The translations under genes were made by a program, and so were the position numbers. The notes beneath the pieces were generated by a model, which was given only the letters and a program-made list of their open reading frames with translations, had not been told where the DNA came from and searched no databases. A DNA stretch of 64,000 nt from Mobula hypostoma (Eukaryota). Numbering within the stretch: position 1 is the first letter of the stretch; each line of letters starts with the position of its first letter. The stretch spans positions 36,768,001 through 36,832,000 of the forward strand of contig NC_086108.1 of NCBI RefSeq assembly GCF_963921235.1, in the 5' to 3' direction. Positions 556 through 59,580 of the stretch are shown piece by piece.

Positions 556-857
556 TGTGGCAGGATGATTTGGAGCCAAATGCTGGAGCAACCGAAGGAT
601 CGAGACATGGTATCGAAACAGATCAAGAACTGAGCACAAAACAAATGTTGGACGATATCATTAGTAGGGTTAAAGATTGAGCACCAAACCTCAGTTCAGG
701 TGCTCTTTAAATTCTCAATTCTTGACACCCAAAACATAATTGCCAATTAGTGGGATCGTCCTCAACCCTTAAAGAGGCCGTGCCAGCTATCCATACTCTG
801 GAGAGTTAGAGTGTTTAAATCCCGGAGGCTAGCATGGTTGGTGTGCGTGTCATAACA
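556..857 (-). repeat. 3' LTR of the Sushi-like element
   Basis: On the minus strand it starts TGTTATGAC directly after the purine tract and ends ...CCACA (TG...CA). The outer boundary is inferred from that terminus because no second LTR is available for comparison. Confidence 0.7.
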
Positions 858-872
858 GGAACCCCTCCCCTA
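858..872 (-). promoter_or_regulatory. Polypurine tract of the Sushi-like element
   Basis: Minus strand AGGGGAGGGGTTCC abutting the LTR start. Confidence 0.75.
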
Positions 873-917
873 CGGCTGACTCCTGATGGCTCTGGCTGTT
901 TGAAGATGAGTGCCGAG

Positions 918-1073
918 GATGAGTGCCGGATCCAAGATGGCTCTTTCAGGCACCTAGCACCTCTCCTTTGGTTTGAGTCCTTCCCAGTCCGTGAGGTATC
1001 GCCAAACACACCAAACAGTATGTGAGTCCAAAAGCCTTTCCACCGTGAAGACCTGTTCCCTCTCAATAATCCT
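918..1073 (-). pseudogene. Integrase C-terminal chromodomain (one in-frame stop)
   Basis: Hand translation RIIEREQVFTVERLLDSHTVWCVWRYLTDWEGLKPKERC*VPERAILDPALI matches the chromovirus pattern (YxVxxLLDSR...YLVDWEGYGPEExSWVP..ILDP). Confidence 0.8.
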
Positions 1074-4000
1074 GGGTGGCAGCGGGGCAGATGGTGGTGG
1101 GGCCAAGGCGTTGGTGCAGACAGGTTTTATTTTAGAGATGTGGAAGGTGGGATTAATCTTTACGGTCCTGGGAAGCTGCAGGTATAAGCCACTGGGATGG
1201 GTCTAGTGAAGTTGGGCGACAACTTTCTAGACTCCACTTAGACAGGCAAATCATGAGTGGACAGCCAGACCTGTTACCCAGGCTGCAAAGAGGGTCTCTG
1301 TCTTTTCTTTCAGTTCGCCTTGGTTTCTGCCTTTTGGGTAGAGACCAACAAAATCTCTCCCTCATTCATTTCTCCTTGCAGCGTTGAATGAGCTCTTCGG
1401 CCACAGGGACCCAACATCGGCCTCCTGTTCCTGAAAGAGAGGTGGAGGATAACCAAACTGGCACTCAAACAGTGACATCCGGTGTGCTGTTGCTGTAAGG
1501 TGTTGTGAGCGACCAAATGGTCACACCACACATCAGGTCTTTCTGAGGCCAGGCATCTTAGGGTATGTTCAAAATCCTGGTTGGTCCATGCTGTCTGGCC
1601 GTTGGACTGTGGGTAAAACCCAGAAGAAATACTTGCTATTACCCCTATCAGCTTACAGAACACCTTCCAGAAATGTGATGTGAATTGTAGACCACGATCT
1701 GAGACAATGTTGACCAGGAGTCCACGAACCCTGAAGACCCGGTCCAGGACAGTTTCAGCAGTCTCCAACACATATGGTAGCTTCTCCAAGGCAATGAACT
1801 TGCAGGCTTTCAAAAACTGATTGACTCCTTGGATGGCGGAAGACCCGTGACAAAGTCCTTGGAGACAGGTGTCCGTGTTTTTTCCGTAACAGTTAGGGGA
1901 GGAGGAGCCCTTGAGGTATGGGGCCACTTGTTCGGGGCGCACACCTCGCATGCCTGCACATACTGCTGAACTTCTTTTGTCATTCTAGGCCACAAACACC
2001 TTCACTTGATAAGCTTGAGGGTCCCGTCAATCCCTGGGTAAGCAGTCATTCTCAAAGAATGTCCCCGTTGGAATACGTGGGACAGAACAGAACTTGGGAC
2101 AAACAGCCAACCCGGAGGACCGTTCTCAGGGATGTCCCTTTGCACTTGGTTCTTGTGAACAAGACCGTCGATTTCCCCAACACCTTGGCTTGGGGCAAAA
2201 TGGTGGTAGGCTGCTCCTCTCATTCCGGTTCGTCAAACTGACAGGACAGGGCGACTGGATTCTTATTCTTTGACCCCTGTCGATAGTTCAGGATGAAATT
2301 AAAGTGGTTAAGAAACAAAGACTGCCTGGCCTCCTGAATGTAAACCAGGTTCTTATGGTCAGTCCAAACAATAAAAGGGTTATAGGCCCCCCTCTACCCA
2401 GTGACACCATTTCCCAAAAGCTAACTTAACCACAATAAGCTCCTGATTCCTGATGTCATTGTTCCTCTCTGCTGGGAATAGCCACCTGGGGAAGAATGCA
2501 CATGGGTACAGTTTCCTGTCTGAAAGTGTTCATTGTGACAACACTGCACCACTCCAGTGTCTGAGGTGTCCTCCTACACAATGAAGGGAAGCTCTGGGTT
2601 CGGAGAAACCAAGATGGGAGCTGATGTGAACTGCTGCTTCAGTGATCCAGACAAAAAAGCCTGTGAATTTCTTAGTACGGACCATCAGCAGAGCTGCCAC
2701 TGAGTTGAAGTTCCTGACGAACTTCTGGTAGATGTTTGTAAACCCTAAGAACCTTTGGACTTATTTGATGCTGGATGGCTGTGGTCAATCTCTGGCTGCC
2801 TGTGTCTTCGTAGGGTCCTTCCTGAGAGTGATGAACCCCAAAAATGAACCAATCATCACATGAAATTCAGACTTCTCCAACTTGACATGAGGTCCATGGA
2901 CTAGAAGCCTCTTTAAAGTGTGCTTGACGTGAACGATGTGCTCCTTTATGGACTTTGAGAAGATTACGATATCATCCAGGTAGATGAAGGCATTCTTATG
3001 GAGAGTGTCCTGGAGCATGTTGTTTGCAAAGGGCTGACAAACCGCTGGAGCATTCTCAAAGTCAAATGGCATAATTAAGTACTCGTAGAGCCCTGTCGGT
3101 GTATTGAATCATTGCCTTCCCTTATATGGACAAGATTGTACACACTCTGTAGGGCTAGCTTAGTGAATACTCTTGTCCCTTAGAGAATATCAAAGGCAGC
3201 ATTCATGAATGGAAGGGGATATGAGGTTTAATCTTCTATTATCAGTACATAGCCATAGGCTCCCATTCTTCTTTTATATGAATAAGAAGTTTGCGCAAGC
3301 TGGTGAGGTGGAGGGCAGAATGAATCCCATAGCAAGAGCTTTCTTTATATATTCCTCCTTTGCACTTCTCTCTGGACCTGAGAGTGCATATAACCAACCA
3401 TTCAGAGGACAAGTAGCAGACAGAAGATATATAACACTGTTATGGGGTTGGTGTGATGGAAGATTTGAGGCCTTTCCCTTGCTGAAGGCCTCTTCCAAGT
3501 CCTTGTATATGGAAGGAATTTCAAGCAGCCTGGGTGTTGCAAGTTGTTCTGAACCCTCCTTCAAGGACGTCTCCTGAGTCTTCCTGGGTGGCAGGGGTGA
3601 TTCAACCGACTTCTGAGTCTCCTCCCTAGGTTCACCAGACTCCATCATATCCTCAGGCGAAAGCAATAAGGTGTTACAGACAGTCCTTGCGCCCCTGGGA
3701 ACAGGCTACAAGGGGCTGCATTTAAGAGTCTTCCCTTTAGTCGGAACCGGGCAGCTGAATCCCTTAAGCTTTGGGTTACCTCGCACTGAAGTCTGTCTCC
3801 TTGCTGGTTGTTGGTCTTAGAAGAGTTTGGTGGTCAGATCAACACACCGCAAATGTACTCCCTTACAATAACTGGACCAAGCAATGATTCTCCCTCCCTC
3901 TAGTCCATGGGTGGATTATGCAGGGATAGCCAAGTGCACCCGAAGATCAGGGGCATGAATGGAGAGTCAATGATGTAGAAACTGGTGTCTTCCACATAAT

Positions 4001-5197
4001 CCCCAATCCTCATCTGCAAATCCTCAGTCTGTTGTTGGATCTGCCGGAATCTAGTGGGCAGCCATCCAAGACAGTTGTGGCACGGACTGACTCAACTCTC
4101 GCAGTGGTATGTCAAGCCGTCGGGTGGTTCTGAGTCCAGAAAATTACCCGCTGCCCCAGAATTCCTAGAAGCCTTCACCTGTCTCAAGTTCTTAACCCCA
4201 GGTGAACTCTGCCTTCAGTAAGAAACTGGAATCTATGGGATTGGGGGCAGCGGCTGCCTCTGCCACAATCCTCCCACTTCTGGATGATCTCAGCAGTTCT
4301 CCAGGCAGCTGCAGCTTCGAGCGTTCTGTCGCAGGTGACATGCTTCCCAGCGGTAATAGCAGCAGCCTTGCTTCCAGCGCTGGGACCTCTCACCAGTGGC
4401 GAGCCTTGTGTAACCGATCTGCATGGGTTCGAAAGAGTTCTGAGCAGGAGATGGGATGGGCTGGCCATGGTCCGAGATCGGGAGGTGTGGAAATGCAATG
4501 AATTGAGTCCAGGCTCGGGCTAGCCATCTTCGGCCTCATAATGTAGTCCCTCTTATGCCCTGCCAGACGATTGTCAAGGTGGATAGATTGGTCGATGACA
4601 ACCTCTAAGCCCCCTGTTGGCTCTCCCAAGGCAAGGGCATTCTTTAGCTCATCCTGGAGTCTGTGGTGGTACAGAGTGGGACGGCTTCGCTGTTCCAAGC
4701 ATTCTGTTGTGCCAAAGTTCGGAAATCAATAGCACAGTTGGCCACTGACCGACTTCCCTGATGTAGCTTCAGCAGAATGTACGAGGCTTTATACGTGCCA
4801 GCAGGATGATAAACTACCTTTCTTATGGTGGTAATGAATTCCTCTGGATAAGCGCAAATCTCTGACCTTCGCTCCCAATGTGTGGTGGCCCAGGTGAGGG
4901 CTCTCCCTGTCCTGTCAGGAAAGAGACCATGAAGACCACGTTTCTGCACACCAAGGGGAGTTTGAACACCAATGTTTTCACCTGAACTGGAGGGAGAATC
5001 CTAGTGGGAAAGTTTGTTAATGCTGCGCAGTGGGGTTTAAACTGTGACTGAGTCAGAATGTCACAGGGTCTTTGGAACAAGAAATAGTACCAACACCAGA
5101 GACACAAAACACAGTGAAGAAGGCTCTAAGCCATCTTAAGGGATTCAGCTGCCCGGTTCCGACTAAAGGGAAGACTCTTAAATGCAGCCCCTTGTAG

Positions 5198-6130
5198 TCA
5201 GGGGACTATGACGGCCATGGCAAAATCTTCAGCTTACGCCTCTTGAAGTAGTCCATTGTAGATTTTGAGGTGTGCTTAGGTTCATTATCCTGTTGTAGAA
5301 GCCATCCTCTTTTCATCTTTGGCTTTTTTACAGATGGCGTGATGTTTGCTTCCAGAATTTGCTGGTATTTAATTAAATTCATTCTTCCCTCTACCAGTGA
5401 AATGTTCCCTGTGCCACTGGCTGCAACACAAGCCCAAAGCATGATCGATCCACCCCTGTGATTAACAGTTGGAGAGGTGTTCTTTTCATGAAATTTTGCA
5501 CCCTTTTTTCTCCAAACATACCTTTGCTCATTGCGACCAGAAAGTTCTATTTTAACTTCATCAGTCCACAGGACTTGTTTCCAAAATGCATCAGGCTTGT
5601 TTAGATGTTCCTTTGGACCTTTTGAATAGAACACACCTCAAAATCCACAATGGTCTACCTCAAGAGGCGCAAGCTGAAGGTTTTGCCATGGCCCTCACAG
5701 TCCCCTGACCTAAACATCATCGAAAATCTGTGAATAGACCTCAAAAGAGCAGTGCATGCAAGACGGCCCAAGAATCTCACAGAACTAGAAGCCTTTTGCA
5801 AGGAAAATAGGTGAAAATCCCCCAAACAAGAATTGAAAGACTCTTAGCTGCCTACAAAAAGCATTTACGGGCTGTGATACTTGCCAAAGGGGGTGTTACT
5901 AAGTACTGCCATGCTGGGTGCCCAAACTTTTGCTTCGGGCCCTTTTCCTTTTTTTGTTATTTTGATATTGTAAAAGATGGAAATAAAAAATGTTTTCTAG
6001 CTTAAAATATTAAAGAAATGTGTCATCTTTAACTTTATGCCTTTTGGAAATCAGTTCATCTTTTACTTGCTTAGCTATTCACAGTAACAGAAATTTTGAC
6101 CAGGGGCGCCCAAACTTTTGCATGCCACTG
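5198..6130 (+). mobile_element. Tc1-like DNA transposon family A, 5'-truncated with inverted internal segment
   Basis: 5198-~5616 encodes transposase on minus (VLWTDE, GGSIMLWAC, QQDNEPKH). 5631-6130 continues on plus ([14 protein letters not shown]...GGVTKY) to the IR/DR right end ...GCATGCCACTG followed by TA. Confidence 0.9.
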
Positions 6131-6230
6131 TATATTGAACTCTCAGTGTGCACACACTCAACTAAGAGTCAACATTTTATCTGTAAAAATACACAATATA
6201 GTAATCCTTATTCTAAATCGTCAGAAGAAT

Positions 6231-8515
6231 TAGAACATAGAACATAGGAAACTACAGCACATTACAGGCCCTTTGGCCCACAATGTTGTGCCGACTGTGT
6301 AACCTACTCTGGAAGCTGCCTAGAATTTCCCATACCGCATTTCTCTCAGCTCTATGTACCTATCTAAAAGGCTCTTAAAAGATCCTATTTTATCTGCCTC
6401 TACCACGATCACTGGCAGTGTATTCCATGCACCCACCACTCTGTGTGAAAAACTTACCACGGACATCCCCTCTGTACCTACTTCCAAGCACCTTAAAGCT
6501 ATGCCCCTTCGTTTTAGCCATTTCAGCCCTGGCAAAAAGCCTCTGGCTATCCACGCAATCAATGCCTCTCATCATCTTACACACTTCTATCAGGTCATCT
6601 CTCATCCTCCGTTGCTCCAAGGAGAAAAAGCCAAGTTCATAAGGTATGCTCTCCAACCCAGGCAATACCCTTGTAAATCTCCTCTGCACTGTTTCTATAG
6701 CATCCACATCATTTCTGTAATGAGGCAACCAGAACTGATCACAGTATACCAAGTGGGGTCTAACTAAGGTCTTATAGAGCTTAACATTACCTCGTGGCTC
6801 TTGAACTCAATCCCATGTTTGATGAAGGCCATCACATCATACACCTTAACAACACTGTCAACTGATGCAGCAGCTTTGAGTGTCCCATGGACACGGACCC
6901 CAAGATATCACTGATCCTCCCACTACCAAGCGTCTTACCATTAATATTATATTCCGTCTTCAAAGTTGACCTACTGAAAGGAGCCACTTCACATTTATCT
7001 GGGTTCTGCCACTTCTTACCCCAGTTCTGCATCCTATCGATATCCCGCTGTAACCTCTGACTATCTTCCAGATTATCCACAACACCCCCAACTTCTGTGT
7101 CATCAGCAAATTTACTAACCCACCCATCTACTTCCTCATCTAGCTCACTTATAAAAATCACGAAGAACAGGGGTCCCAGAACAGATCCCTGTGGAACATC
7201 GCTGGTCCCCATCCTCAATGCAGAATATGAACCATCCACAACCACCCAAGCACGAGGAATTCTGCGGCTGCTGGAAATTCAAGCAACACACATCAAAGTT
7301 GCTGGTGAACGCAGCAGGCCAGGCAGCATCTCCAGGAAGAGGTACAGTCGACATTTCGGGCGGAGACCCTTCATCAGGATACCCCTTGCCCATCCTCTGG
7401 GTTTTTTCCCGCCCTCCCCCTTTTCCTTCTCCCTGGGCCTCCTGTCCCATGATCCTCTCATATCCCTTTTGCCAATCAACTGTCCAGCTCTTGGCTCCAT
7501 CCCTCCCCTTCCTGTCTTCTCCTATCATTTGGATCTCTCCCTCCCCCTCCCACTTTCAAATCTCTTACTCGCTCTTCCTTTAGTTAGTCCTGACAAAGGG
7601 TCTTGGCTCGAAGCATCGACTGTACCTCTTTCTAGAGATGCTGCCTGGCCTGCTGCATTCACCAGCAACTTTGATGTGTGTTGCATCCATAACCACCCTT
7701 TGCCTTCTGTGGGCAAGCCAATTCTGGATCCACAAAACAAGGCCTTCTTGGATCCCATGCCTCATTATTTTCTAAATGAGCCTTGCCTGGGGAACCTTAT
7801 CAAATGCCTTACTGAAATCCATATACACGACATCCACTGTTCTTCCTTCATCTACGTGTCTTGTTACATCCTCAAAGAATTCAATTAGGCTTGTAAGGCA
7901 TGACCTGCCCTTGACAAAGCTATGCTGACTATCCTTAATCAGATTATGTCGCTCCAAATGTCCATAAATCCTGCCTCTCAGGATCTTCCCCAACAACTTG
8001 TCCACCATTGAAGTAAGGCTCACTGGTCTATAATTTTTTGGGTTAACTCTACTCCTTTTCTTGAACAAGGAAACAACATTTCCAACCTTCCAATCCTCTG
8101 GTACTTCTCGTGACCCTATTGATAACACAAAGATCATTGCCAGAGGCTCAGCAATCTCCCTCGCTTCCCACAGTTGCCTGGGGTATATCTCGTCAAGATC
8201 CAGTTCATCCTCTTTCTTAATCTGTATACACTCAGCATTTCAGTCCACTGTAAGTCATCCCCACAATTGCCAAGGTCCTTTTCCCTGGTGAAAATTGAAG
8301 CAAAGTATTCATTAAGTGCCTCTGCTACCTCCTTTCTAATATCGCACCGGATGGGTCCTATTCTCACACAACTCATCCTCTTGCTGTTCACATTCTTGTG
8401 GAATGCCTTGGGGGTTTCTTTAATCCTGTTCACCAAGGCCTTTTCATGGCCCCTTCTAGCTCTCCTAATTTCATTCTTGAGCTCCTTCCTGGCACCCTTG
8501 TTATTTTTTAGAGCA
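6231..8515 (-). mobile_element. CR1 LINE, 5'-truncated, (ATGTTCT)n tail, interrupted by a PLE insertion
   Basis: ORF fragments 7772..8137 (NYRPVSLTS, YMDFSKAFDKVP), 6832..7245 (VPQGSVLGP, KFADD) and 6390..6752; tail AGAACATAGAACAT at 6232. Confidence 0.92.
7248..7683 (+). mobile_element. Penelope-like non-autonomous insertion (terminal repeat plus inverted partial copy) carrying hammerhead motifs
   Basis: Flanked by 15-bp TSD CATCCAC/TAACCACCC (7233-7247, 7684-7698). 7251-7380 is an inverted copy of the element's 3' end. Hammerhead-like cores at 7346-7380 (-) and 7586-7621 (+, degenerate). Confidence 0.85.
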
Positions 8516-8639
8516 ATGGTGAGTTATCAATAAAAATTTTGCAATTGACAATGGATAAGATCTTCCGCAGCATAAACTATTGCTCATATAATGAGAATGA
8601 CATTTTTGTGTTTTTGCCATTCCTACTGGGGTAGAAAAT

Positions 8640-9610
8640 CAATTCATCAAAAGTGGAAGGTTGAATTTTCTTTTGGCAGTTGTCTTTACCCAGAATAGAG
8701 CAATCCACTGCCATATCTGTATGCATCTTTGCGGATTCATTCTTCATCTTTACCTTGATATCCTATTGCTTCCTGCCGTTTTCAACCCCCTCAATGAGAC
8801 TGCAATGTTATACAGACTCCTTCCCTCTATCCCTGAATTAGGTTGTTTGACAAAGTTTCCCTTTTTGAAGAGATTAGATTGATATGCACAAGTGGTACAA
8901 GATTGATAGGGTTGCTTTGATTAGTTTGTGTTTGTTTTTACAATGCCATAAATACATGTCCATTCTTCTGACATATATAACACTAAGCCTCCTTAAAGGA
9001 TTAGACTAGTAGTGAATGGTCATTGCATTTATAGCAGGATGGACACCACTTACTGTATATAGACGTGAAGCAGACTTTGTTTTGGGAATAGAATATCTGC
9101 AATTGTCTGCTGACTATAAGTATGTCATATTGTGCCTAGTGATGGACGAAATTAATTGGCATATTTTGATACCATTCTATTAAGAATGCAATTTTGTAAG
9201 CCAGATCAAAGAGAAGATGTGTGCTTAACAATTTGCACTGAATCTACTCATCATTTAAGCCGCAAATCCACCCTGCAGTGCATGGTTTATGAATTCATCA
9301 AAGTTGCAATGTCTGGATAATCATTTAATGCAGCAATCTATTCACAGACTCTTCTTCTTGCCCTTTGATTTCTCATGCCAAATGTAGAACTACTGTAACT
9401 GCTGTTTTAACTGACTATGGGTTGAATAATCCTCAAATTTCTGTAGCTACCCAGTCAATGAAGCTTCTTTGGCTCTGAGACTACCAGATCGGTAGACATG
9501 TAATAACTGTTAGAACCAACCGCTGTCAATAGAATCACTTTCCTACACTCTTTTATGGCAAAATACTCTGCTGGTGCATTCACCCACACATATTAGCCTC
9601 CATTTATCCA
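8640..9610 (-). mobile_element. Ancient Gypsy-type gag/protease relic
   Basis: Frameshifted minus-strand translation gives SRHCNFDEFINHALQ..., zinc-knuckle remnants CYKCNDH...CYICQKNGH, then a protease-like KMHTDMAVDCSIL. Confidence 0.55.
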
Positions 9611-11954: not shown

Positions 11955-12438
11955 GCTTGCTTCGTCGAGCACCTTTACTCTGTGCTATTTCCTGGTAGCC
12001 ACCCATTCTAATTCAATTTCCCATTCCTATCCTGCAACTTCAGTCCACGGCCTCCCCTACTGCTGTGATGAGGCCACACTTGGGTTGGAGGAACAACACC
12101 TCAAATTCCATCAGGGTGGCCTCCAAACTGATGACTTGAATATTGATTTTGTTACCTTCTAGTAATTTCTGTGGAAGACCTTTTCCCATGGTCCACTATA
12201 CTGTCCTAATAGATTCCTTCATCTTCAGCCCTTTACCTCTTTAACTTATCATCTCCCAGCTTCTTACTTCTTAACCCCCTCCCCATTCAGCCATCTTCCC
12301 CCTCACTTGGTTTCACCTGCCAGTTTATACTCCTTCCCCTCCCCCACCTTCTTATTCTGGCTCCTGTCCCCCATCCTGTTGACTGTTTATTCCTCTCCAT
12401 AGACAGGCAGAGTTCCTCCAGCATTTTGTGTATGTTGT
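11955..12438 (+). mobile_element. Penelope-like element 3' fragment (GIY-YIG C-terminus plus terminal repeat)
   Basis: ORF 11953..12162 has VATHSNSISHS...SVHGL..C.DEATLGLEEQHLKF.QGGLQTDDLNIDF, a PLE endonuclease C-terminus pattern. The tail GAGTTCCTCCAGCATTTTGTGT is shared with 54975 and 58851. Confidence 0.75.
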
Positions 12439-20190: not shown

Positions 20191-20672
20191 GTGCTTGAGT
20201 TTCATGTGATCAATGTACCATTAAACAATCTATCAAAGATGTGGAACGTCATTTACAATCAATCACAGCACTGTGTAAAGTGTTACATGCTTCTGATCTA
20301 TCTAATCTATCAGTAAATGAAAATCAAAAACACACTGCAGACTCTAGAACTCTGAAATAAAAATATAAATTGCTGGGAAAATTCAACAGGTCAGGCACCA
20401 TCTGTGGAAAGAGAGGCAATTACTGTTTTCACTTTACAGCCCTTTCTCTAAACTTAGGCCAATCATTCAACTGTACTTAGGTCACAGGCATAAACACTGT
20501 TTTTTTTCATATGGTAATGAAGGTGCAGAGTATTTAACTGAACAAATGAAGTGCAATAAAGAATCCAGTTAGTCAATTTCACATCAGAGGAACTTAGAGA
20601 TGCCAGCCTCTGCAAATTACTCCCTAACAAACGGTTCAAAGCAGGCCAGGCAGCATCTATAGGCAGAGGTAC

Positions 20673-20708
20673 AGTCGACGTTTCGGGCTGAGACCCTTCG
20701 TCAGGACT
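20673..20708 (-). ncRNA. Minimal type-I hammerhead ribozyme motif (intact core)
   Basis: AGUC CUGACGA A GGGU-CUCA-GCCC GAAAC GUC/GACU: stem I AGUC:GACU, conserved core, stem II, palindromic ACGU stem III, GUC cleavage triplet. Confidence 0.8.
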
Positions 20709-21026
20709 AACTGAAGGAAGAGCTAGTAAAAGACCTCCCCTTTGTACCCCACCCATTATTTATTTATTTATTTATTTATTATTAATTTTTTTTCTCTCCT
20801 TTTTCTCCCTCTGTCCCTCTCACTGTACTCCTTGCCCATCCTCTGGGCTTCCCCCTCCTCCTTTCTTTCGCCCTAGGCCTCCCATCCCATGATCCTCTCA
20901 TATCCCTTTTGCCAATCAACATTCCAGCTCTTAGCACCATCCCTCCCCCTCCTGTCTTCTCCTATCATTTCGGATCTCCCCATCCCCCTTCCACTTTCAA
21001 ATCTCTTACTATCTCTTCTTTCAGTT

Positions 21027-21062
21027 AGTCCTGACGAATGGTCTCGGCGCGAAACGTCGACT
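21027..21062 (+). ncRNA. Minimal type-I hammerhead motif (core intact, stem II weakened)
   Basis: AGUC CUGACGA AUGGUCUCGGCGC GAAAC GUC GACU. Confidence 0.7.
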
Positions 21063-22487
21063 GTACCTCTTCCTATAGACACTGCTTGGCCTGCTGCGTT
21101 CACCAGCATTTTGTATGTGTTGCTTGAAATTCCAGCACCTGCAGATTTCCTCGTGCAATGGTTCAAAGGTTCATTTTTTAATCAAAGTATGTATGCAGAA
21201 TACAACTCTGAGATTTGTCTTCTGCAGATAGCCACAAAACAGAAAAACCATGGACGTTATTGAAAGAAAAGACATCAAACTATCCCCCCCACGCACACAT
21301 ATAAAAGAAAATGAAACAAAAACTCACAAACCCCAAACCCTCAACCCCCTCCTTCACAAAAAAAAACAAAAATATCACCCATACGGAAAAAAAGCAACAA
21401 TAACATCAAACCCCCAACCTCCTGTTTTGCACGCACAAAAACAACAAATCACCCACACAGAGAAAAACACCAACAAAAACACCAACCTTCAAATCCCCAG
21501 CCCCTTCCTCGCACAAAAGCTTACGTATCGTTTATCTGGAAAACAGCAACAAGGACATCAAACCCCAACCCCCAACCTGCTAATCAACAACAAGAAAGAA
21601 AACAGAGGAAACTGAAGGAGACCAATATGAACAACAGGATCTGGTCTATTCATTCATTCAGTACCATATCCAAAGGAAATTCTTATGCATTTCAGTAAAT
21701 CTTGCAGATACCAAAGACCAGTTTAATAGAAGGACCTTAATATACAGTCTAGTTCTATTTTCTTCATTAGTAAATAGATATTGGGTGAAAGGGACACAGG
21801 CAATTGATAATAGATTCTCATTTTCTTTATATCCTTGAGTTTACTTTCTTTTACTAAATATATGAACATGTGAGAAAGCTGTTCCATTATGTGCAAATTT
21901 TTCATGATGCTAATTATTTGCCTTTTTTACAAATGGCTCTTCATCATGAAATAGCACAGCATAAATGTCAGCTGGATTTTCCAGAGTGTAATCTGACAAA
22001 TATTATTGCACTGAATAAGCTGCCAGAAAATAAATTTTACTCTGTTTAAAAGAAAGGTTAGAGGGATAAAGACAGCCAGTGGGAGTATTATTGGTATCAG
22101 CTCTGGCTTCACAGCTCAGAAATGATGAAGTGTAAATTAACTGTGGGAAATGTAAGAAAAGGCAAAATCTCAAGTGATGTTCAAAATACAATTTGTCTCT
22201 GCTTAAAAGGTAATTAAAACACTTAGGCACCTAGTTGGCCTACATTGGACATAATTACAAAATCTGATTTCTCTGTATTTCAAGGGCACTGAAGAAAGTA
22301 ATATCCAGGTGTGAGATTAAAGACCGAAGATGAGAATTTTCTGCATGAGTTTATTCAGAATCATGAATCCAACTTCCTCTCTCACATCACAAGAGTGAAG
22401 GTTCATGTTTTGATCTGTTATCATTTTAATTAAAATATATTTTTCACATCATGCTGCACTTTGTTCCTCTGCTGCCACAGACAAATA

Positions 22488-23369
22488 CAGTGACATGCAA
22501 AAGTTTGAGCACCCCTGGTCAAAATTTCTGTTACTGTGAATAGCTAAGCAGTAAAAGAAGAACTGATTTCCAAAAGGCATACAGCTAAAGATGACACATT
22601 TCTTTAATATTTTAAGCAAGATGACTTTTTTATTTCCATCTTTTACAGTTTCAAAATAACAAAAAGGAAAAGGGCCCGAAGCAAACGTTTGGGCACCCTG
22701 CATGGTCAGTACTTAGTAACACCCCCTTTGGCAAGTATCACAGCTTATAAACACTTTTTGTAGCCAGCTAAGAGTCTTTCAATTCTTGTTTGGGGGATTT
22801 TCATCCATTCTTCCTTGCAAAAGGCTTCTAGTTCTGTGAAATTCTTGGGCCATCTTGCACGCACTGCTCTTTTGAGGTCTATCCACAGATTCTCGATGAT
22901 GTTTAGGTCAGGGACTGTGAGGGCCATGGCAAACCTTCAGCTTGCGCCTCTTGAGGTCGTCCATTGTGGATCCTGAGGTGTGTTTAGGATCATTATCCTG
23001 TTGTAGAAGCCATCCTCTTTTCATTGTCAGCTTTTTTACAGACGGTGTGATGTTTGCTTCCAGAATTTGCTGGTATTTAATTGAATTCATTCTTTCCTCT
23101 ACCAGTGAAATGTTCTCTGTGCCACTGGCTGCAACACAAGCCCAAGACATGATCAATCCATCCCCATGCTTAACAGTTGGAGAGGTGTTCTTTTCATGAA
23201 ATTCTGCACTCTTTTTTCTCCAAACATACCTTTGCTCATTGCGGCCAAAATTCAGCGTCAGATGTTTGCAAAGGAACATCTAAACAAGCCTGATGCATTT
23301 TGGAAACAAGTCCTGTGGACAGATGAAGTTAAAGTAGAAATTTATGGCCGCAATGAGCAAAGGTATGTT
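22488..23369 (-). mobile_element. Tc1-like family A copy 2, 5'-truncated with inverted segment
   Basis: TA|CAGTGACATGCAAAAGTTTG terminus; transposase ORFs 22908..23279 (QQDNDPKH) and 22745..22927 ([10 protein letters not shown]). ~23262-23369 is inverted (FAKEHLNKPDAFWKQVLWTDE on plus). Confidence 0.9.
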
Positions 23370-35387: not shown

Positions 35388-35616
35388 TGAAGCACCTTCA
35401 ATTACTCCGAAAGACTGAGGTTTGGTAAAATACTGAAAGGCTTTTATTCACTGTACAATACGACCTCCACAGTGAGTGTCTGCCCCCGGACTGAGGGGGA
35501 GGGGCAAGGCGAACACCTTTATACAGGACTCTGTGGGAGGAGCCACAGGGTCAGTCAGCAGAGGGGTGTGTCCAGACAGGTAACCGAGTTACAACATATA
35601 TACATGGTTTACCACA
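35388..35616 (-). repeat. 3' LTR
   Basis: Direct repeat of 39558-39786; minus strand TGTGG...CTTCA (may extend 6 nt to GTAACA at 35382). Confidence 0.93.
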
Positions 35617-35634
35617 TTCACCCCTCCTTTTTTT
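35617..35634 (-). promoter_or_regulatory. Polypurine tract
   Basis: AAAAAAAGGAGGGGTGAA directly before the TGTGG of the 3' LTR. Confidence 0.85.
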
Positions 35635-35685
35635 AAAAAGAGTCCCGCGGGGTGAAGTGACTGACAATATTTACAAGAGGTATAT

Positions 35686-38600
35686 TTACAGGTTAAGTCT
35701 ATCAGGCGGTCGAGTCCGTCGCTGTGATCTACATAGCACCGGCGGTGATTGCACCGGCGATGGCGGTTGTGCTGGCTCCGGCCTGACTTCAGGTGCCAGC
35801 ACGTTAGGCGTCGGTAATCCCTCGTGCGTGTGCGTCGCGCCCGGTATGGGAGTGTCGTGTGGTGTCTGTATAGGGTTTGGGGTGCACGGTGTCTCGTAGG
35901 TACATACATTGGTGGGTACGGGGTTAATAGTCACCACGGAGTGTTCAGGGTAGGGGTCCGGAGCTCCTGCGGGTGCCAGATCGCGGATGGAGACCGTGTC
36001 CTCCCGCCCATCAGGTAAAACCACACAGGCATACTGGGGGTTCGCATGAAGTAAGTGAACCCTCTCGACTATCGGGGAGTATTTATTGCTCCTCGCATGT
36101 TTCCGGAGCAGCACTGGCCCTGGGGACGTCAGCCAAGATGGTAAGGTGGTCCCAGTGGTCGACTTTCTGGGAAAAGAAAAGAGCCGCTCATGAGGGGTGG
36201 CATTGGTGGCTGTGCATAACAGGGAGCGGATGGAGTGGAGTGCCTCGGGAAGGACCTCCTGCCAGCGGGAGACCAGCAGTCCCTTTGACCTGAGGGCTAA
36301 GAGTGTGGCTTTCCACACTGTGCCATTCTCCTTCTCCACCTGTCCATTCCCCCGGGGATTATATCTCGTGGTCCTACTGGTTGCAATTCCCCTAGCCAGT
36401 AGATATTGACGCAGCTCGTCACTCATAAACGAGGACCCTCTGTCACTGTGGATATAGCATGGGTATCCGAGCAGAGTGAAGAGCTTGCGCAGGGCTTTTA
36501 TAACTGACGTGGTAGTGGTGTCGGGGCAGGGGATGGCGAAGGGGAACCGCGAGTACTCGTCAATTACGTTAAGAAACTACACATTGCGGTCGATGGAGGG
36601 AAGGGGGCCCTTAAAGTCAACACTCAGTCGCTCAAAGGGGCGGGTGGCCTTGATGAGTGGTGCCTTTTCGGGTCGGTAGAAGTGCGGTTTGCACTCTGCG
36701 CAGACTTGGCAGTCCCTGGTCATCATCCTGATCTCCTCAAGGGAGTAAGGCAGGTTCCAGGCTTTCACGAAGTGCAAAAGCCGGGTGGCTCCCGGCTGGC
36801 AAAGGTCTACGTGTAGGGCGTATAGCCGCTCGATCTGCGCGCTGGCACATGTTCCCCGGGATAGGGCATCGGAGGGCTCGTTGAGCTTCCCAGGCCTGTA
36901 CATGATGTCATAGTTGTAGGTGGAGAGTTCGATTCTCCACTTCAGAATTTTATCATTTTTGATTTTGCTCCGCTGCTGATTATTAAACATGAATGTGACT
37001 GAACGCTGGTCAGTTAGCAGGGTGAACCTTTTGCCGGCAAGATAGTGCCTCCAGTGCCTTATAGCTTCCACTATGACCTGGGCCTCTTTCTCTACCGCAG
37101 AGTGCCGAATTTCAGGGCCTTGAAGGGTACGGGAGAAGAACACCACTGGTCTTCCTGCCTGGTTGAGGGTAGCAGCCAGCGCAAAGTCGGAGGCGTCACT
37201 CTCTACTTGGAAGGGAATGGCCTCATCCACCGCATGCATTGCTGCTTTGGCAATGTCCCCTTTTATGCGGTTGAAGGCCGCGTGGGCCTCGGCAGAGAGG
37301 GGGAATGTGGTGGACTTGACCAGGGGGCGGGCCTTGTCTGCATAATTAGAGACCCATTGGGCATAATATGAGAAGAAGCCCAGGCACCTTTTGAGGGCTC
37401 TGAGGGTATTGGGAAGAGGGAGTTCCAACAAGGGGCGCATACGGTCGGAGTCAGGGCTAATAACTCCATTCTCTACGACACACCCAAGGATAGCAAGTCG
37501 GGTGGTCCCAAATACACACTTGTCTTTGTTATAGGTGAGGTTGAAAGATTTGGCCGCTTGGAGAAATTTTTGGAGGTTGTTGTCGTGATCCTGCTGGTCG
37601 TGACCGCAGATGGTGATGTTATCCAGGTATGGGAACGTGGCCTTCAGTTGGCACTGGTCCACCATCCGGTCCATTGCCCTCTGGAAGACAGATACACCAT
37701 TCGTGACACCAAAGGGGACGTGCAGAAATTGATAAAGCCTGCCATCTGCCTCGAAGGCAGTGTAAGGGCGGTCCTCCCGGCGGATGGGGAGCTGGTGGTA
37801 AGCGGATTTTAGGTCTATGGTCGAGTACACCTTGTACTGTGCTATCTGATTGACCATATCCACGATGCGGGGTAGAGGGTACGCGTCGAGCTGCGTGAAC
37901 CTATTGATGGTCTGGCTATAGTCCACGACCATCCTATTCTTCTCCCCATTCCGAACAACCACCACCTGCACCCTCCAAGGACTTGTGCTTACCTCAATGA
38001 CCCCCTCCCTGAGCAGCCGCTGCACCTCCAACTTAATGAAAGCTCTGTCCCCTGCGCTGTACCTCCTGCTTTTCGTTGTCACAGGTTTACACTCGGGGGT
38101 CAGGTTGGCGAACAGCGGTGGGGGAGGGATCCTGAGGGTGGAGAGGCCGCAAGTGGTGTCGGTAGTGTGGCAGTTGGCATGATGTTGGGTGGGATGCGCG
38201 GGTCGGTGTGTGTGTGTGGTCAGTAGCGGGGTACGTGACATATCTCTACAAAACAGGGGATTTATGACAGTAATTGGCGGGAGGGGCCCATCATACTTCA
38301 TTGTCACGCTTTTCAGGTGGCTCTGGAAGTCCAACCCCAACAGCACAGGGGCACACAGTTGAGGCAAGACCAGTAACGTAAAGTCCCGATATTCTGTGCC
38401 CTGCACCACTAGTGTAGCTACACAACCCCCCCGGATGTCTGTTGTATGCGACCTGGAGGCCATGGTGACCCTCCGACTTATCGGCCGTATCATGAGTCCA
38501 CAATGCTGCACCGTTGTTGGGTGGATAAAACTCTCCGTGCTGCCTGTGTCAAACAGACAGTTTGTCCTGTGCCCCACCACCAGGATGTCCATCATTGACC

Positions 38601-39531
38601 TTGCGAGCTGGTGGGGAGCGCTTTGGTCGAGGGTCACGGAAGCCAGGGTGGGGTGCCCCGTGAGCACCCATTGGTCGTAGGCGGTGGGAGGTGGTGTCAA
38701 CCAAGATGGCCGCCCCCATGTCTCGCACGTGGTGGTGGCGTGCAGGGAAGATGGCGGCAGGCATGATGGCGACCCCCACGTCTCGCACGCGGCGCTGCTC
38801 GATCCCGCTCGCGGTTTTGACTTACAGACCTTGGTGAAGTGGCCCTTCTTTCCGCAGCTGGAGCAGGTAGCTTGTCGGGCTGGGCAGCGTTTCCGGGGGT
38901 GCTTCTCCAGTCTGCAGAAGTAGCACTTCGTGGACTCATGACTGGCGGCAGCCGAGGTCGATTCGCCGGCAGGTTGCGAGGTCTGCGGCACCCACGAGGC
39001 CATCGGGGGATCGCGTGCCTGGAGAGCCTCGGAGTTATGCAGCGCGGCCTCCAATGTATCAGCCAGCTCCATCGCCGAATTTAGGGTAAGATCGGCTTTT
39101 TCCAGCAGCCTCTGGCGCACGTACACTGACCTGGTCCCCGTGATGAAGGCGTCCCTCACTAGGAGTTCTGCATGCTGCATTTTGCAGGCTCGCACGAGCA
39201 TCCGTAGGGCCTGGATGAACTCAGCACTCGATTCCCCGGGGCGTTGTTGCCGTGTCGCTAAACGGTGCCGAGCATAGACGCTGTTTATCGGCCACAGGTA
39301 TTGTCTTTTGAGTGCGTTCATTGCGCCGTCGTAGTTCGGCTGGTCTCTGATCAGTGAATAGACCCGTGGACTGACCCTGGAGAGTAGAACTCTGAGCTTC
39401 GCTACGGGGTCGGTCGCTTTAATCTCCTCTAGATACGCTTTGAAGCAGGTCAGCCAGGGTTTGAAAGCGTTTCCAGCTTCAGGTGTTTGCGGATTGAGGT
39501 CTAATTTTTCTGGTCTCAGGGACTGTTCCAT
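35686..39531 (-). pseudogene. Gag-Pol polyprotein with one premature TAG at 36577-36579
   Basis: ORF 36577..39531 (two zinc knuckles, LFDTGS protease, RT with YLDN, RNase H, CQVC, VDFKGP) is in frame with 35686..36426 through RNV*FLNVIDEYSRFPF...HSDRGSSFMSDE...NGQVEKEN. Confidence 0.93.
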
Positions 39532-39557
39532 GTTTTAAAACGTACAGCGAATAAAAT

Positions 39558-39786
39558 TGAAGCACCTTCAATTACCCCAAAAGACGGAGGTTTGGTAAAA
39601 TACTGAAAGGCTTTTATTCGCTGTACAATACGACCCCCACAGTGAGTGTCTGCCCCCGGACTGAGGGGGAGGGGCAAGGCGAACACCTTTATACAGGACT
39701 CTGTGGGAGGAGCCACAGGGGCAGTCAGTAGAGGGGTGTGTCCAGACAGGTAACTGAGTTACAACATATATACATGGTTTACCACA
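39558..39786 (-). repeat. 5' LTR with TATAAA (39688-39693) and AATAAA (39613-39618)
   Basis: Direct repeat of 35388-35616; gag ATG lies 26 nt downstream. Confidence 0.93.
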
Positions 39787-49077: not shown

Positions 49078-49175
49078 TCCTGACGAAGGGTCTCGGCCTG
49101 AAACGTCGACTGCGCCTCTTCCTATAGATGCTGCTTGGCCTGCTGTGTTCACCAGCAACTTTGATGTATGTTTTT
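49078..49175 (+). mobile_element. 98-bp PLE-derived insertion starting at a hammerhead motif
   Basis: Perfect 14-bp TSD TGGAATTTACCATG (49064-49077, 49176-49189); motif GUC CUGACGA AGGGUCUCGGCCU GAAAC GUC GAC at 49077-49110. Confidence 0.88.
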
Positions 49176-50571: not shown

Positions 50572-51060
50572 TTCTAAGCCTTTGCAGTGGTCAACACCAT
50601 AAAAGCACACAGTAATGAAATTTGGTAATGTGTCCTTTGTACTGCAGGTAAATGGAATTCATCTTCTTCACATGTAGAGAATGAGAGGCAGTAGGATCTC
50701 ATGGATATCTGGTAACAGAGTCTGCAGCAGTGCATCGCTGGCTCCATATTGGAGTGAGAATATTACATTTAAACACTGAGGTGGTCCAAAATAACAATAG
50801 TTTACTTTGTCTGAACAGTTGGTAGAAATGTAGAAAGTAGGAGCAGGGGTCAGCCATTTAGCCCTTTAGATCTGCTCTGCCTTTCAATACAACATATCTG
50901 ATTCTTTGTCACAGTATTATAAACCCACTCTCTCCCCATCAAATGATTTCTTCTGTACCTGGAAACCTTTCTATCACCTACTCATGCTCTGATTTCCTCT
51001 GCCTTCTGTGGTGGAGATTTCCACAGATTCACAACGCTCTAAGTGGAGACATTTCTCTTC

Positions 51061-51447
51061 AAGCAACACACATCAAAGTTGCTGGTGAACACAGCAAGCC
51101 AGGCAGCATCTCTAGGAAGAGGTACAGTCGATGTTTCGGGCCGAGATCCTTCATCAGGACTAACTGAGAGAAGAGCTAGTAAGAGATTTGAAAGTGGAAG
51201 GGGGAGGGGGAGATCCAAAATGATAGGAGATGACAGGAGGGGGAGGGATGGAGCCAAGAGCTGGACAGGTGATTGGCAAAAGGGATACGAGAGGATCATG
51301 GGACAGGAGGCCCAGGGAGAAGGAAAAGGGGGAGGGGGGAAACGCAGAGGATGGGCAAGGGGTATAGTCAGAGGGACAGAGGGAGAAAAAGGAGAGAGAG
51401 AGAGTAAGAATGTGTGTATATAAATAAATAACGGATGGGGTACGAGG
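51061..51447 (-). mobile_element. Penelope-like terminal-repeat insertion with hammerhead motif
   Basis: Same family as 7248 and 20641; TSD TCTCTTC(A) at 51054 and 51448; motif at 51126-51161 (-) AGUC CUGAUGA AGGAUCUCGGCCC GAAAC AUC GACU. Confidence 0.85.
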
Positions 51448-53916: not shown

Positions 53917-54974
53917 TATGTGCTTGTACTCAAACCTTTTGCATTGAAGGTCAACATACCATTTACTTTCTTAGTTACCTGTGGAACCTCCCTGTTTGCT
54001 TCTAGAGACTGGTGTACAAGGACGCTTGTGTCCCTTCGTGTATTAACATTTCCCAGCCTACCAGAATAAATAACTTCATATTTTTCCATTTTATGCTGTC
54101 TCTGTCCACTCACACAACTTGTCCAAACGCTTTGACGCTTCTTTAGTCACAACAACCCACAATTCCGCTTAGCCTGGCATTTCTGGTGAACATAGAGGAA
54201 TTATATTCTGTTGTCTTATCCAGATCCTTGATAAGTATTATGAATAATGGGGCCCAAGCACAGATCACTATGGTAACGTGTAAGCTGGATGTATGATGAA
54301 GGGAGGTGTAGTGATACTGATTGTGATGGTTGACTAGCTAGCTGCATGTGCGATTTCTGAGATGTGAGGTGTTTAACTTATATTTTTCTTGCTCTTGCCT
54401 TCTTGAATGATGCTACATGCCCGTGATACTGTTATAAGTAAGTTTTTCATTGCACCTGTGGATATGACAATAAATTTGACTTTCATTGCGATTCTTAATA
54501 CTACTAATTAGTGATGGTCCATGTGAGATCATTAGTCTACCCCTGGTGGGAATGTGTTGAATTGAGCAGATTATCAGGCTAATGGCTCAGCTGATTGGAG
54601 GTGGGATCTAAGATGTATTCATTGATAGAGAATATGCACGTGTAGTTAGCGAAGGTTTCACAGCACCACATCCAAATGTACTAGCTGATGCTGCGTTTCT
54701 GGCACTGGCCTTTGTCAGTTGTCTCCTCTCACTGTCAGCTCAGAGTAAATGTCGGGGCCTCCTGAGCTCAGTAGGTAGATCAGAAAATTCAGGTATCTAT
54801 CTCCCCTGTGTTCATTCTGCTAACCCCTTCCGGAACATTGTCACCAAGCACTCTCTCTTGCAGACTTGACTCAAACGGATCCAGCTTGTTTGAACTGCTG
54901 TTCGCCAGTCACTAAGCTGATGTGAATACTGATGTGCAAATAAATCAACAGTTATCTTATAAACCCAAATTTTG

Positions 54975-55230
54975 CAGATACTGGAAATCCAAAGCAACAC
55001 ACACAAAATGCTGGAGGAGCTCAGCGGGTGAGGTAGCATCCACAGGAGCGAATAAGTAGTCAGCGTTTTTGGCTGAGTCCATTCTTCAGGACTGGAAAGG
55101 GAGGGATGGATGTTAGGATAAAAAAGTGGGAAGGAGGGGAAGGAGGATAACTAGAAGGTGATAGGTGAAGCCAAGGGGGTAGGAAACGTAAACGGCTGGA
55201 CAGGAAGGGATCTACTAAGGGAGTGGACCA
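54975..55230 (-). mobile_element. Older PLE terminal-repeat fragment with degenerate hammerhead
   Basis: Shares CACACAAAATGCTGGAGGA with other PLE copies; minus 55058-55093 AGUC CUGAAGA AUGGACUCAGCCA AAAAC GCU GACU. Confidence 0.7.
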
Positions 55231-58611: not shown

Positions 58612-58850
58612 CCTTAAGCCATATTGGATATAAATAGCCATGAGTACTCTCACTAAAGGAAGATTATACTGTAATTACCTAATCTAGTTAACTTCTCTGT
58701 TTATTCTCCATGGAGAGTTTATCTGCCAATACTCACTGGTGAGTCCTCTCTCCCTAACAAGGAGAAGATTCTTTCAGCTAACAAAATAGTTTAAAACACA
58801 TGCTCATTTAATTTCAGTGACACACATATGAATTCAAACAATGTTCTTAA

Positions 58851-59580
58851 AAGCAACGCACAAAATGCTGGAGGAACTCAGCAAGTCAGGCAGCATCTAT
58901 GGAAATGAATAAGCAGTCGATGCTTCTGACCGAGACCCTTCTTCTGGACTGGAAAGGAAAGTGGAAGATGCCAGAATAAAAAGGCCAGGGGAGCGGAAGG
59001 AGGGTAGCAAGAAGGTGATAGGTGAAGCCAGGTGGGTAGGAAAGATAAATACTGAAGAGGAATTTGATAGGAGATCATAGGAGAAATGGAACGAGGAGAG
59101 GACCCAGGGGGAGGTGATGGGTAGGTGAGAAGATGTAAGAGGCCAGAGTAGAGAATAGAAAAAGAGGGGAGGGGGAGGAAAAATATTTTTTACCAGGAGG
59201 AGAAATTAATACTCATGCCACAAGTTGGAGGCTATCCAGATAGTAAATAATGTGTTGTTCTTCTACCCTAAATGTGGCCTCATCTCAGCACAAGAGGAGG
59301 CCAATGACTAACATGTCAGAATGGGAATGGAAATAGGAATTAAAATGTTTGGCCACCAGAAAGTTCTGCTTTTGGCAGGTGGAGGGGAGCTGCTCATCCA
59401 AGCTGCCCCCCCAATTTACAAAGTATCTCAGAGGTCGCATTGGAAGCACTGGACACAATAACAACCCCAGCAGATTTGCAGGTGAAATGTTGCCTCACCT
59501 GGAAGGATGGAGATTATTGGGGGGGGGATGGATGGACAAGGGATTTATGGAGGGAGTAAACCCTTCGGAAAGCAGTTTTT
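58851..59580 (-). mobile_element. Penelope-like element 3' fragment with GIY-YIG remnant
   Basis: Minus translation SFQVRQHFTCKSAGVV...VAKHFNS...HSHSDML...RVEEQH; terminal repeat with a decayed hammerhead at ~58915-58950. Confidence 0.75.

What the first reader, a model, noticed from the sequence alone, without database searches (positions are those of the whole stretch)
20673..21062. Minimal hammerhead ribozyme motifs dispersed by short Penelope-like repeats
Seen: AGUC-CUGAnGA-A-GGGU(loop)GCCC-GAAAC-GUC-GACU recurs at 7346(-), 7586(+), 20673(-), 21027(+), 49077(+), 51126(-), 55058(-) and ~58915(-), with varying decay. Stem I (AGUC:GACU), the catalytic core and the GUC cleavage triplet fit a type-I hammerhead whose helix III is only the palindrome ACGU. 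Known: PLE terminal repeats carry such minimal hammerheads, proposed to cleave as dimers. Inference: a non-coding, retrozyme-like PLE family has spread self-cleaving motifs at roughly one per 8 kb here, which could affect any host transcript crossing the region.
Basis: partly seen in the sequence, partly recalled or inferred. Interest (0 to 1): 0.7.

Follow-up and report, generated by a model that had tools for sequence, protein, structure and literature searches.

The report
Penelope retrotransposon ends carry minimal hammerheads
These repeats are the clipped tail ends of a very abundant protein-coding Penelope-type jumping gene, each carrying a tiny, predicted self-cutting RNA motif already known from such elements; most copies are broken, so they likely do not cut host transcripts.

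Summary
All eight motifs sit where stated and far exceed chance: 6,605 exact 34-nt matches genome-wide, control 0. They fit the published minimal type-I hammerhead of Penelope-like elements (PLEs). The family is not non-coding or retrozyme-like: the motifs are 3' ends of 5'-truncated copies of a coding RT + GIY-YIG PLE. Of 210 copies chosen on the tail alone, 72 reach the ORF, 100 have an inverted partner and about 2 are direct tandems; full-length copies exist (L032, L051). The 20673/21027 pair is one head-to-head insertion with a 12-bp target duplication, predicted to fold into a long hairpin that buries the ribozyme. Only 1 of 8 window copies passes an intact-motif test. The density is ordinary here (108 per 600 kb genome-wide). 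Cleavage of host transcripts is therefore unlikely; catalytic activity was not tested. One extra: 5' ends pile up at the hammerhead's front edge, not at its cut site (17 of 71 short copies, p about 1e-6), suggesting an RNA start there. This scan has already reported that, and the family, on other DNA of this genome. New member of a known kind; low interest.

The parts
20642..21156 (.). One composite head-to-head PLE insertion (subfamily A): short inverted arm 20642-20733(-) plus longer arm 20733-21156(+) made of the CT-rich 3' UTR, hammerhead and tail
   Evidence: BLAST to natural long copies: arms span -29..+62 and -313..+126 relative to C3 of the core; predicted hairpin -188 kcal/mol, z -17.8
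20630..20641 (+). Left target-site duplication (12 bp, 1 mismatch)
21157..21168 (+). Right target-site duplication
20673..20708 (-). Minimal type-I hammerhead, the only intact one in the window: helix I arms 20708-20705 and 20676-20673, CUGACGA 20704-20698, extra A, helix II 20696-20685, GAAAC 20684-20680, GUC 20679-20677; predicted cut between 20677 and 20676
   Evidence: as a monomer it is predicted to misfold with the core paired
21027..21062 (+). Hammerhead motif with intact core but broken helix II
7248..7683 (.). Second head-to-head insertion (subfamily A) inside a CR1-type LINE, 14-15-bp target duplication; motifs 7346(-) (5' helix I arm lost, ACGU changed) and 7586(+) (two core changes)
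49078..49175 (+). About 100-bp stub that begins at the front edge of the hammerhead; perfect 14-bp target duplication (49064-49077 / 49176-49189)
51058..51447 (-). 5'-truncated copy (subfamily A), 3' UTR + motif 51126-51161 with helix II and helix III changes; possible 8-bp duplication
54973..55200 (-). Older subfamily B copy, motif 55058-55093 with core changes; 5' end not fixed exactly
58849..59575 (-). Older subfamily B copy: decayed motif 58915-58950 preceded by 3' UTR and the C-terminal GIY-YIG remnant of the PLE ORF (59225-59504)
   Evidence: tblastn E 1.8e-16; blastn

Best explanation
The motifs are the 3' ends of 5'-truncated copies of a protein-coding, endonuclease-bearing Penelope-like retrotransposon (RT + GIY-YIG, Neptune/Nematis-type linker), and each end carries a minimal type-I hammerhead that is predicted to cut only when paired with a second copy and likely serves the element rather than the host. 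Shown: the full element is about 3.56 kb per unit (hammerhead, tail, 5' region, ORF, CT-rich UTR, hammerhead, tail); copies share two 3' ends about 34 nt apart, have staggered 5' ends, are often joined head to head, and have target duplications. Inferred: the element's protein nicks the target and starts reverse transcription inside the RNA at one of two sites downstream of the hammerhead, as shown in vitro for an anole PLE; most copying stops early, so every insertion delivers a tail and most deliver a hammerhead. Inferred: the template is uncut RNA, since copies do not start at the cut site, and many short copies run off an RNA 5' end lying just before helix I. Inferred: in a full-length or tandem transcript two hammerheads pair through ACGU to build helix III, probably helped by the protein; solitary, mutated or fold-back genomic copies would not cut.
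For: Fixed 3' end and staircase 5' coverage in 30 loci. Upstream frames encode RT motifs (TMDVQSLY, YIDD), a Cys-rich linker and GIY-YIG with CxxC between the two motifs. Pfam RVT_1 and GIY-YIG hit single natural ORFs at E 1e-5 to 1e-3, below Pfam's curated cut-offs; 422 homologues, the best named ones from rays and sharks. L032 has two sense hammerheads 3,564 bp apart around the ORF, and L051 starts at AGTC behind an inverted copy. Among 210 copies chosen on the tail alone, 72 reach the ORF stop, 43 reach GIY-YIG, 100 have an inverted partner at the 5' junction, and 203 end in two clusters near +94 and +128. 19 of 30 subfamily B loci have PLE coding sequence upstream. The 36-nt motif is the same at 35 of 36 majority positions between subfamilies A and B and 32 of 36 between A and C, while the flanks differ. 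Non-CpG core positions change less than base-matched flanks in 4 of 4 samples (4 vs 15.7, 8 vs 12.3, 14 vs 27.5, 13 vs 19.5; column permutation P 0.005, 0.13, 0.027, 0.16). CpGs in helix III decay as fast as loop CpGs (21 vs 19 changes in 97 copies), as expected once a copy is inserted.
Against: No cleavage assay and no raw RNA reads. No compensatory covariation: 1 both-sided change among 380 A/B/C instances over 9 pairs, so the fold rests on motif identity, not covariation. The active double-hammerhead layout scores -14.7 kcal/mol against -27.0 for the best dimer fold and -11.9 for each misfolded monomer, so it is not favoured unaided. The lower change rate at the core is significant in only 2 of 4 samples and may owe something to poorly aligned C/T-rich flanks; it could also mean some selection on inserted copies. 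No uninterrupted full-length ORF was seen (longest 690 aa among 40 loci). Neptune versus Nematis was not resolved (no tree with named references).
Confidence: 0.88

Rival explanations
1. A non-coding, retrozyme-like family of short hammerhead repeats spreads on its own RNA (tandem or circular), borrowing PLE enzymes.
For: 120 of 210 copies start within 52 nt upstream of the core or further downstream and carry no coding sequence (49 of 90, 71 of 120). 5' ends peak at the hammerhead edge, giving near-discrete units of 100-130 nt. Animal retrozymes are argued to derive from PLE pLTRs (bioRxiv 10.64898/2026.07.22.740005, parts 1-2 read). 11 of 108 sampled hits have a same-strand neighbour within 500 bp.
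Against: Short copies have no sequence of their own and grade into coding copies. Direct tandems of the unit are about 2 of 210. Tandem Repeats Finder finds no such array in the window. The hammerhead is the minimal PLE type, not the canonical type of retrozyme arrays (PMC7229834, passages).
Confidence: 0.06
2. The conserved 36 nt work mainly as a non-catalytic signal of the element (internal promoter or start site, 3' splice site, or protein-binding hairpin), and cleavage is negligible in vivo.
For: 5' ends pile up at the motif's front edge and not at the cut site. A pyrimidine tract ending in AG abuts helix I in all three subfamilies; in D. virilis the intron end maps to helix I (PMC4209133). 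The monomer is predicted to fold with its core paired. In the anole PLE, ribozyme mutants still insert in vitro and no RNA-seq reads end at the cut site (PMC11167929).
Against: The invariant positions are exactly the catalytic ones, with N7 and loop II free to vary between subfamilies. The anole PLE hammerhead does cut when protein is present (PMC11167929). Copies starting at the edge share no upstream exon.
Confidence: 0.25
3. The dispersed motifs act on host RNA: they cut, end or circularise transcripts that cross them.
For: Sheer number: about 626,000 motif-bearing ends (95% interval 513,000-755,000) and about 93,000 intact by descriptor (53,000-151,000), extrapolated from 108 and 16 in 600 kb. 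Core positions are somewhat better kept than flanks.
Against: 1 of 8 intact in the window, so no intact same-strand partner within it. Close neighbours are mostly on the opposite strand (30 vs 11 of 108 within 500 bp) and would form double-stranded RNA. Helix III CpGs decay freely. Published monomers are inactive (PMC4209133).
Confidence: 0.05

Closest known systems
Minimal hammerheads (min-HHR) in pLTRs of metazoan PLEs (Cervera and de la Pena 2014, PMC4209133; parts 1-2 of 4 read)
   Same: Type I, short helix I, one extra nucleotide between A9 and G10.1, G10.1-C11.1 closing pair (G.U in one subfamily), palindromic positions 15.2-16.2 without loop 3, mostly single dispersed copies from truncated PLEs, opposite-strand pairs 100-700 bp apart; already reported in Xena, Poseidon and Neptune PLEs of fishes
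   Different: Helix II is 4 bp (7-8 bp in Schistosoma); copy number is about 100-fold above the 4,000-9,000 quoted for coelacanth and Xenopus (different counting method); a cartilaginous fish is not named in the parts read
EN+ Penelope-like elements of the Neptune/Nematis type (Craig et al. 2021, PMC8557442, introduction and passages; Arkhipova et al. 2013, PMC3846280, passages)
   Same: Single RT + C-terminal GIY-YIG ORF, CCHH finger, Cys-rich linker, partial tandems forming pLTRs, inverted 5'-truncated copy, optional 30-40-bp tail, target duplications
   Different: No structural difference found; clade not placed on a tree; hammerhead lies about 320 nt downstream of the stop codon
Poseidon element of Anolis carolinensis, PAc (Frangieh et al. 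2024, PMC11167929; parts 1-2 of 4 read)
   Same: Two 3' ends a tail's length apart downstream of the hammerhead; no sign that cut RNA is the template
   Different: There the ORF starts inside the hammerhead and the clade is Penelope/Poseidon; here a long 5' region follows the tail and the ORF has the Cys-rich linker
Non-LTR retrozymes of animals (Cervera and de la Pena 2020, PMC7229834, passages; Li et al. 2026 bioRxiv, parts 1-2 of 5)
   Same: Type-I hammerhead in a short non-coding unit, link to PLEs
   Different: Retrozymes are tandem arrays of 150-450-bp units, mostly with canonical hammerheads, expressed as circles; here units are single or head-to-head and continuous with a coding element

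Membership tests
Minimal type-I hammerhead of PLEs | Core CUGAnGA ... GAAA, NUH triplet, helices I and II | tested here: met
   20673-20708(-) passes; 81 of 162 young copies spanning the motif and 16 motifs in 600 kb pass, control 0
Minimal type-I hammerhead of PLEs | Extra nucleotide after A9 and palindromic, loopless helix III | tested here: met
   (in the C19U subfamily the extra A can instead pair with U)
Minimal type-I hammerhead of PLEs | Compensatory base changes in helices | tested here: inconclusive
   1 both-sided change in 380 A/B/C instances; pairs are nearly invariant between subfamilies, so covariation cannot be scored
Minimal type-I hammerhead of PLEs | Self-cleavage as a dimer | not testable with these tools
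   needs in vitro assay; energy model does not favour the active dimer unaided
EN+ Penelope-like element | RT and C-terminal GIY-YIG endonuclease in one ORF | tested here: met
   L069 and L035 ORFs hit RVT_1 and GIY-YIG, below curated cut-offs; homologues carry both
EN+ Penelope-like element | CCHH finger with two Cys between GIY and YIG | tested here: met
   CxxC between the motifs and HxxxxxH downstream
EN+ Penelope-like element | pLTR partial tandems, inverted 5' copy, optional 30-40-bp tail | tested here: met
   L032, L051; 100 of 210 inverted; two 3' ends about 34 nt apart
Neptune/Nematis clades | Extra Cys-rich motif in the RT-EN linker | tested here: met
   C-x4-C-x2-C in L025, L019, L067 translations; mutated in L069
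Neptune/Nematis clades | RT phylogeny with named references | not tested
   no named reference PLE sequences were in hand; PDB search gave none
Non-LTR retrozyme | Tandem array with a hammerhead in each unit | tested here: not met
   about 2 of 210 direct tandems; none in the window
Non-LTR retrozyme | No coding capacity | tested here: not met
   72 of 210 copies reach the ORF; 19 of 30 subfamily B loci have coding sequence upstream
Non-LTR retrozyme | Expressed as small circular RNA | not testable with these tools
   only contigs of other organisms, RNA status guessed

The most novel reading that the evidence does not exclude
The element's RNA begins at the foot of its hammerhead. Reverse transcription started at the 5'-proximal copy of the internal start site runs off that end and mass-produces 100-130-nt hammerhead-plus-tail stubs and head-to-head hairpins from uncut RNA. 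The genome thus holds a map of the transcript's 5' end and of both RT start sites, and a SINE-like by-product made without any separate non-autonomous element.
Probability: 0.5. Interest if true: 0.45.

Novelty: new member of a known kind. Interest (0 to 1): 0.22.

Why it matters
Its value is as material: roughly 600,000 motif-bearing ends, many young, record where reverse transcription starts and stops. That bears on the open question of what PLE hammerheads are for, and the data favour uncut RNA as template. If host RNA is affected at all, the likelier route is long double-stranded hairpins from head-to-head insertions, not self-cleavage.

Tried and rejected
Rfam at gathering and E-value thresholds: no hammerhead family. 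PDB sequence search with a natural ORF: no match. Sequencing runs: no RNA holder listed; the runs laid were contigs of other organisms with guessed RNA status, so they give no evidence on expression, cleavage, splicing or circles; they show only that the family is present in those runs. No empty-site joint for 20642-21156 appeared among the 15 joints shown of 610. 5' ends at the cut site: 2 of 90 at +27..+29 and 0 of 71 short copies at +26..+30 (3 at +25), so no peak. Spliced-copy idea (AG just before helix I): copies starting there share no upstream exon; not supported, not excluded for RNA. The first breakpoint tally used an 84% identity filter that dropped most sampled subfamily A copies (10 kept from the sample plus window; 33 were assigned to A in the sample) and was replaced by tail-anchored samples. 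Covariation: none usable. Lunse et al. 2016 on PLE hammerhead dimers is not held; I saw only its title and a review's summary. A host gene over the window was not identified; neighbouring DNA was not fetched. Supplements of the cited papers were not read and may list a shark or ray element.

Full report
Observation. The eight listed places all carry the motif or a decayed form on the stated strand. The bare core pattern gives 5 window matches against 1.32 expected. The exact 34-nt motif occurs 3,287 + 3,318 = 6,605 times in G000 (3.48 Gb) with 0 for the reversed control. Five exact 36-40-nt variants of the tail downstream of it occur 38,504, 1,957, 11,238, 19,486 and 3,618 times. Rfam does not detect it. 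This matches the min-HHR features listed by Cervera and de la Pena 2014 (PMC4209133, parts 1-2 of 4 read).

Corrections to the count. 20642-21156 is one insertion: a short inverted arm joined head to head to a longer arm, flanked by a 12-bp duplication with one mismatch. 7248-7683 is built the same way (14-15-bp duplication). 49078-49175 is a 100-bp stub with a perfect 14-bp duplication. So 8 motifs are 6 insertions. By a descriptor that asks for the full core, 4 helix I pairs, a closed helix II and ACGU, 1 of 8 is intact. Sixty 10-kb stretches at fixed positions on 19 large contigs hold 108 motif/tail hits (reversed control 0) and 16 intact motifs. That is one per 5.6 kb, or about 626,000 and 93,000 genome-wide by extrapolation. 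The window's density is ordinary.

What the repeat is. Thirty loci similar to the finding share a fixed 3' end and a staircase of 5' ends. The longer ones translate into RT, a Cys-rich linker and a GIY-YIG domain that ends about 320 nt before the hammerhead. A search with the RT segment gave 5,014 first-look candidates. Of 40 fetched, L032 has two sense hammerheads 3,564 bp apart around the ORF, and L051 is a full-length copy that begins at AGTC behind an inverted arm. All 40 have broken frames; the longest open stretch is 690 aa. Natural ORFs hit Pfam RVT_1 and GIY-YIG at E 1e-5 to 1e-3, below the curated cut-offs. One ORF has 422 homologues; the best named are from rays and sharks, the rest mostly from unnamed or invertebrate sources. 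The CxxC between GIY and YIG, the downstream His pair and the linker motif fit EN+ PLEs of the Neptune/Nematis type as defined in PMC8557442 (introduction read; passages) and PMC3846280 (passages). I built no tree, so the clade is not fixed. The two older window copies belong to subfamily B: 19 of 30 B loci have PLE coding sequence upstream, and the 58915 copy itself continues into GIY-YIG at 59225-59504.

Unbiased anatomy. I took 210 copies selected only on the tail, all from the first 45 Mb of contig C1 and biased to young copies: 90 and then 120 more as an independent test. 72 reach the ORF stop, 43 reach GIY-YIG, 100 have an inverted partner at the 5' junction, and about 2 are direct tandems of the unit. 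3' ends fall in two clusters near +94 (97 copies) and +128 (106 copies) relative to C3. This is the PLE tail, which Frangieh et al. 2024 tie to two internal RT start sites (PMC11167929, parts 1-2 of 4 read). Retrozymes are tandem, non-coding and circular (PMC7229834, passages; bioRxiv 10.64898/2026.07.22.740005, parts 1-2 of 5). The first two features were tested and not met.

5' ends. In the first 90 copies 11 began at 0 to -5, the front edge of helix I (scan P 0.008). I noted this before looking at earlier findings. In the independent 120, 17 of 71 short copies began there (P 9e-7 against uniform, 8e-5 against neighbouring positions), and 0 of 71 at +26..+30, where cut RNA would start; 3 began at +25. 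The rate of 5' ends also drops about tenfold beyond -52. Caveats: boundaries are BLAST ends good to 2-3 nt, both arms of some inverted pairs are counted, L267/L268 look like one duplicated locus, and several starts at -6 are fold-back centres (outside the tested bin). I infer an RNA 5' end there. In D. virilis the promoter is internal to the pLTR (PMC2377424, passages) and an intron ends at helix I (PMC4209133). One search aimed at this and four others listed no paper reporting the peak in the parts I read. This scan's own notes report it several times on other DNA of this genome; those are AI notes, not independent support.

Is the ribozyme under selection? Between subfamilies, yes: the majority motif differs at 1 of 36 positions between A and B (N7) and at 4 between A and C (loop II, a helix II wobble, a CpG site) while flanks differ widely (instances were chosen by at most 8 mismatches to the motif, which favours likeness). 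There is no compensatory covariation (1 both-sided change in 380 instances). Among copies, non-CpG core positions changed less than base-matched flanks in all four samples, significantly in two. CpGs in helix III decay as fast as those in the loop (21 vs 19 changes in 97 copies). The simplest reading is selection on source elements and free decay after insertion; alignment noise in C/T-rich flanks or weak selection on copies cannot be excluded.

How it would work. The monomer cannot form helix III and is predicted to fold with its core paired. Two copies can pair through ACGU, but that layout scores -14.7 kcal/mol against -27.0 for the best dimer fold, so help is needed. Published min-HHRs are inactive as monomers and weak as dimers (PMC4209133; review PMC6765202, passages), and the anole one cuts only with its protein and is not needed for insertion in vitro (PMC11167929). 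A transcript through 20620-21150 is predicted to form a hairpin of about 95 bp (-188 kcal/mol, z -17.8) that buries the motif. In the genome sample 30 of 108 hits have an opposite-strand neighbour within 500 bp and 11 a same-strand one. Cleavage of host RNA here is therefore unlikely. No RNA data for this organism were available, and I did not establish whether a gene spans the window.

Verdict. Observation confirmed; interpretation partly supported. A new member of a known kind: an abundant coding PLE with the known minimal hammerhead. Interest 0.22. The boldest reading left open is that the transcript starts at the hammerhead's foot and stubs are run-off products of uncut RNA (probability 0.5, interest 0.45). 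The labels CR1, Gypsy and Tc1 for other window repeats are recalled from protein motifs and were not tested.

Noticed in passing
window 35388-39786 (-): LTR retrotransposon of Gypsy type (label recalled from motifs): terminal repeats 35388-35616 and 39558-39786 are 96.5% alike, with open frames of 985 aa (36577-39534) and 296 aa (35686-36576); it interrupts a CR1-type LINE.
   Followed up: no
window 11987-12166 (+): Isolated C-terminal GIY-YIG fragment of an older PLE copy (tblastn E 1.7e-15); no hammerhead hit was found downstream.
   Followed up: partly
   Followed up: no
window 21005-21030 (+) and the same place in subfamilies B and C: A pyrimidine tract ending in AG abuts or overlaps the 5' arm of helix I, like a 3' splice site; D. 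virilis Penelope has an intron ending at helix I. Copies starting there share no upstream exon.
   Followed up: partly
protein hits P0001, P0004, P0071: Gene models of rays named as a kinase-domain protein, a chitinase-domain protein and nicotinamide riboside kinase match the PLE ORF over 61-85% of the query: annotation artefacts or exonised PLE pieces.
   Followed up: no
window 5197-6133, 22485-23369, 45827-46538, 61589-62020: Tc1/mariner-type transposase fragments (label recalled), some internally inverted.
   Followed up: no
window 800-5000 (-): Decayed second LTR-type element with gag, RT and integrase fragments; 3706-3768 is a perfect 63-bp inverted copy of 5135-5197.
   Followed up: no
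L233, L296, L332, L169 and several inverted arms: A few copies begin exactly at +25, the GTCGAC palindrome that spans the predicted cut site; too few to test.
   Followed up: partly
L048 and L050: A PLE locus on the 143-kb contig C3 is nearly identical, flanks included, to one on C2: likely an unplaced duplicate or haplotype in the assembly.
   Followed up: no
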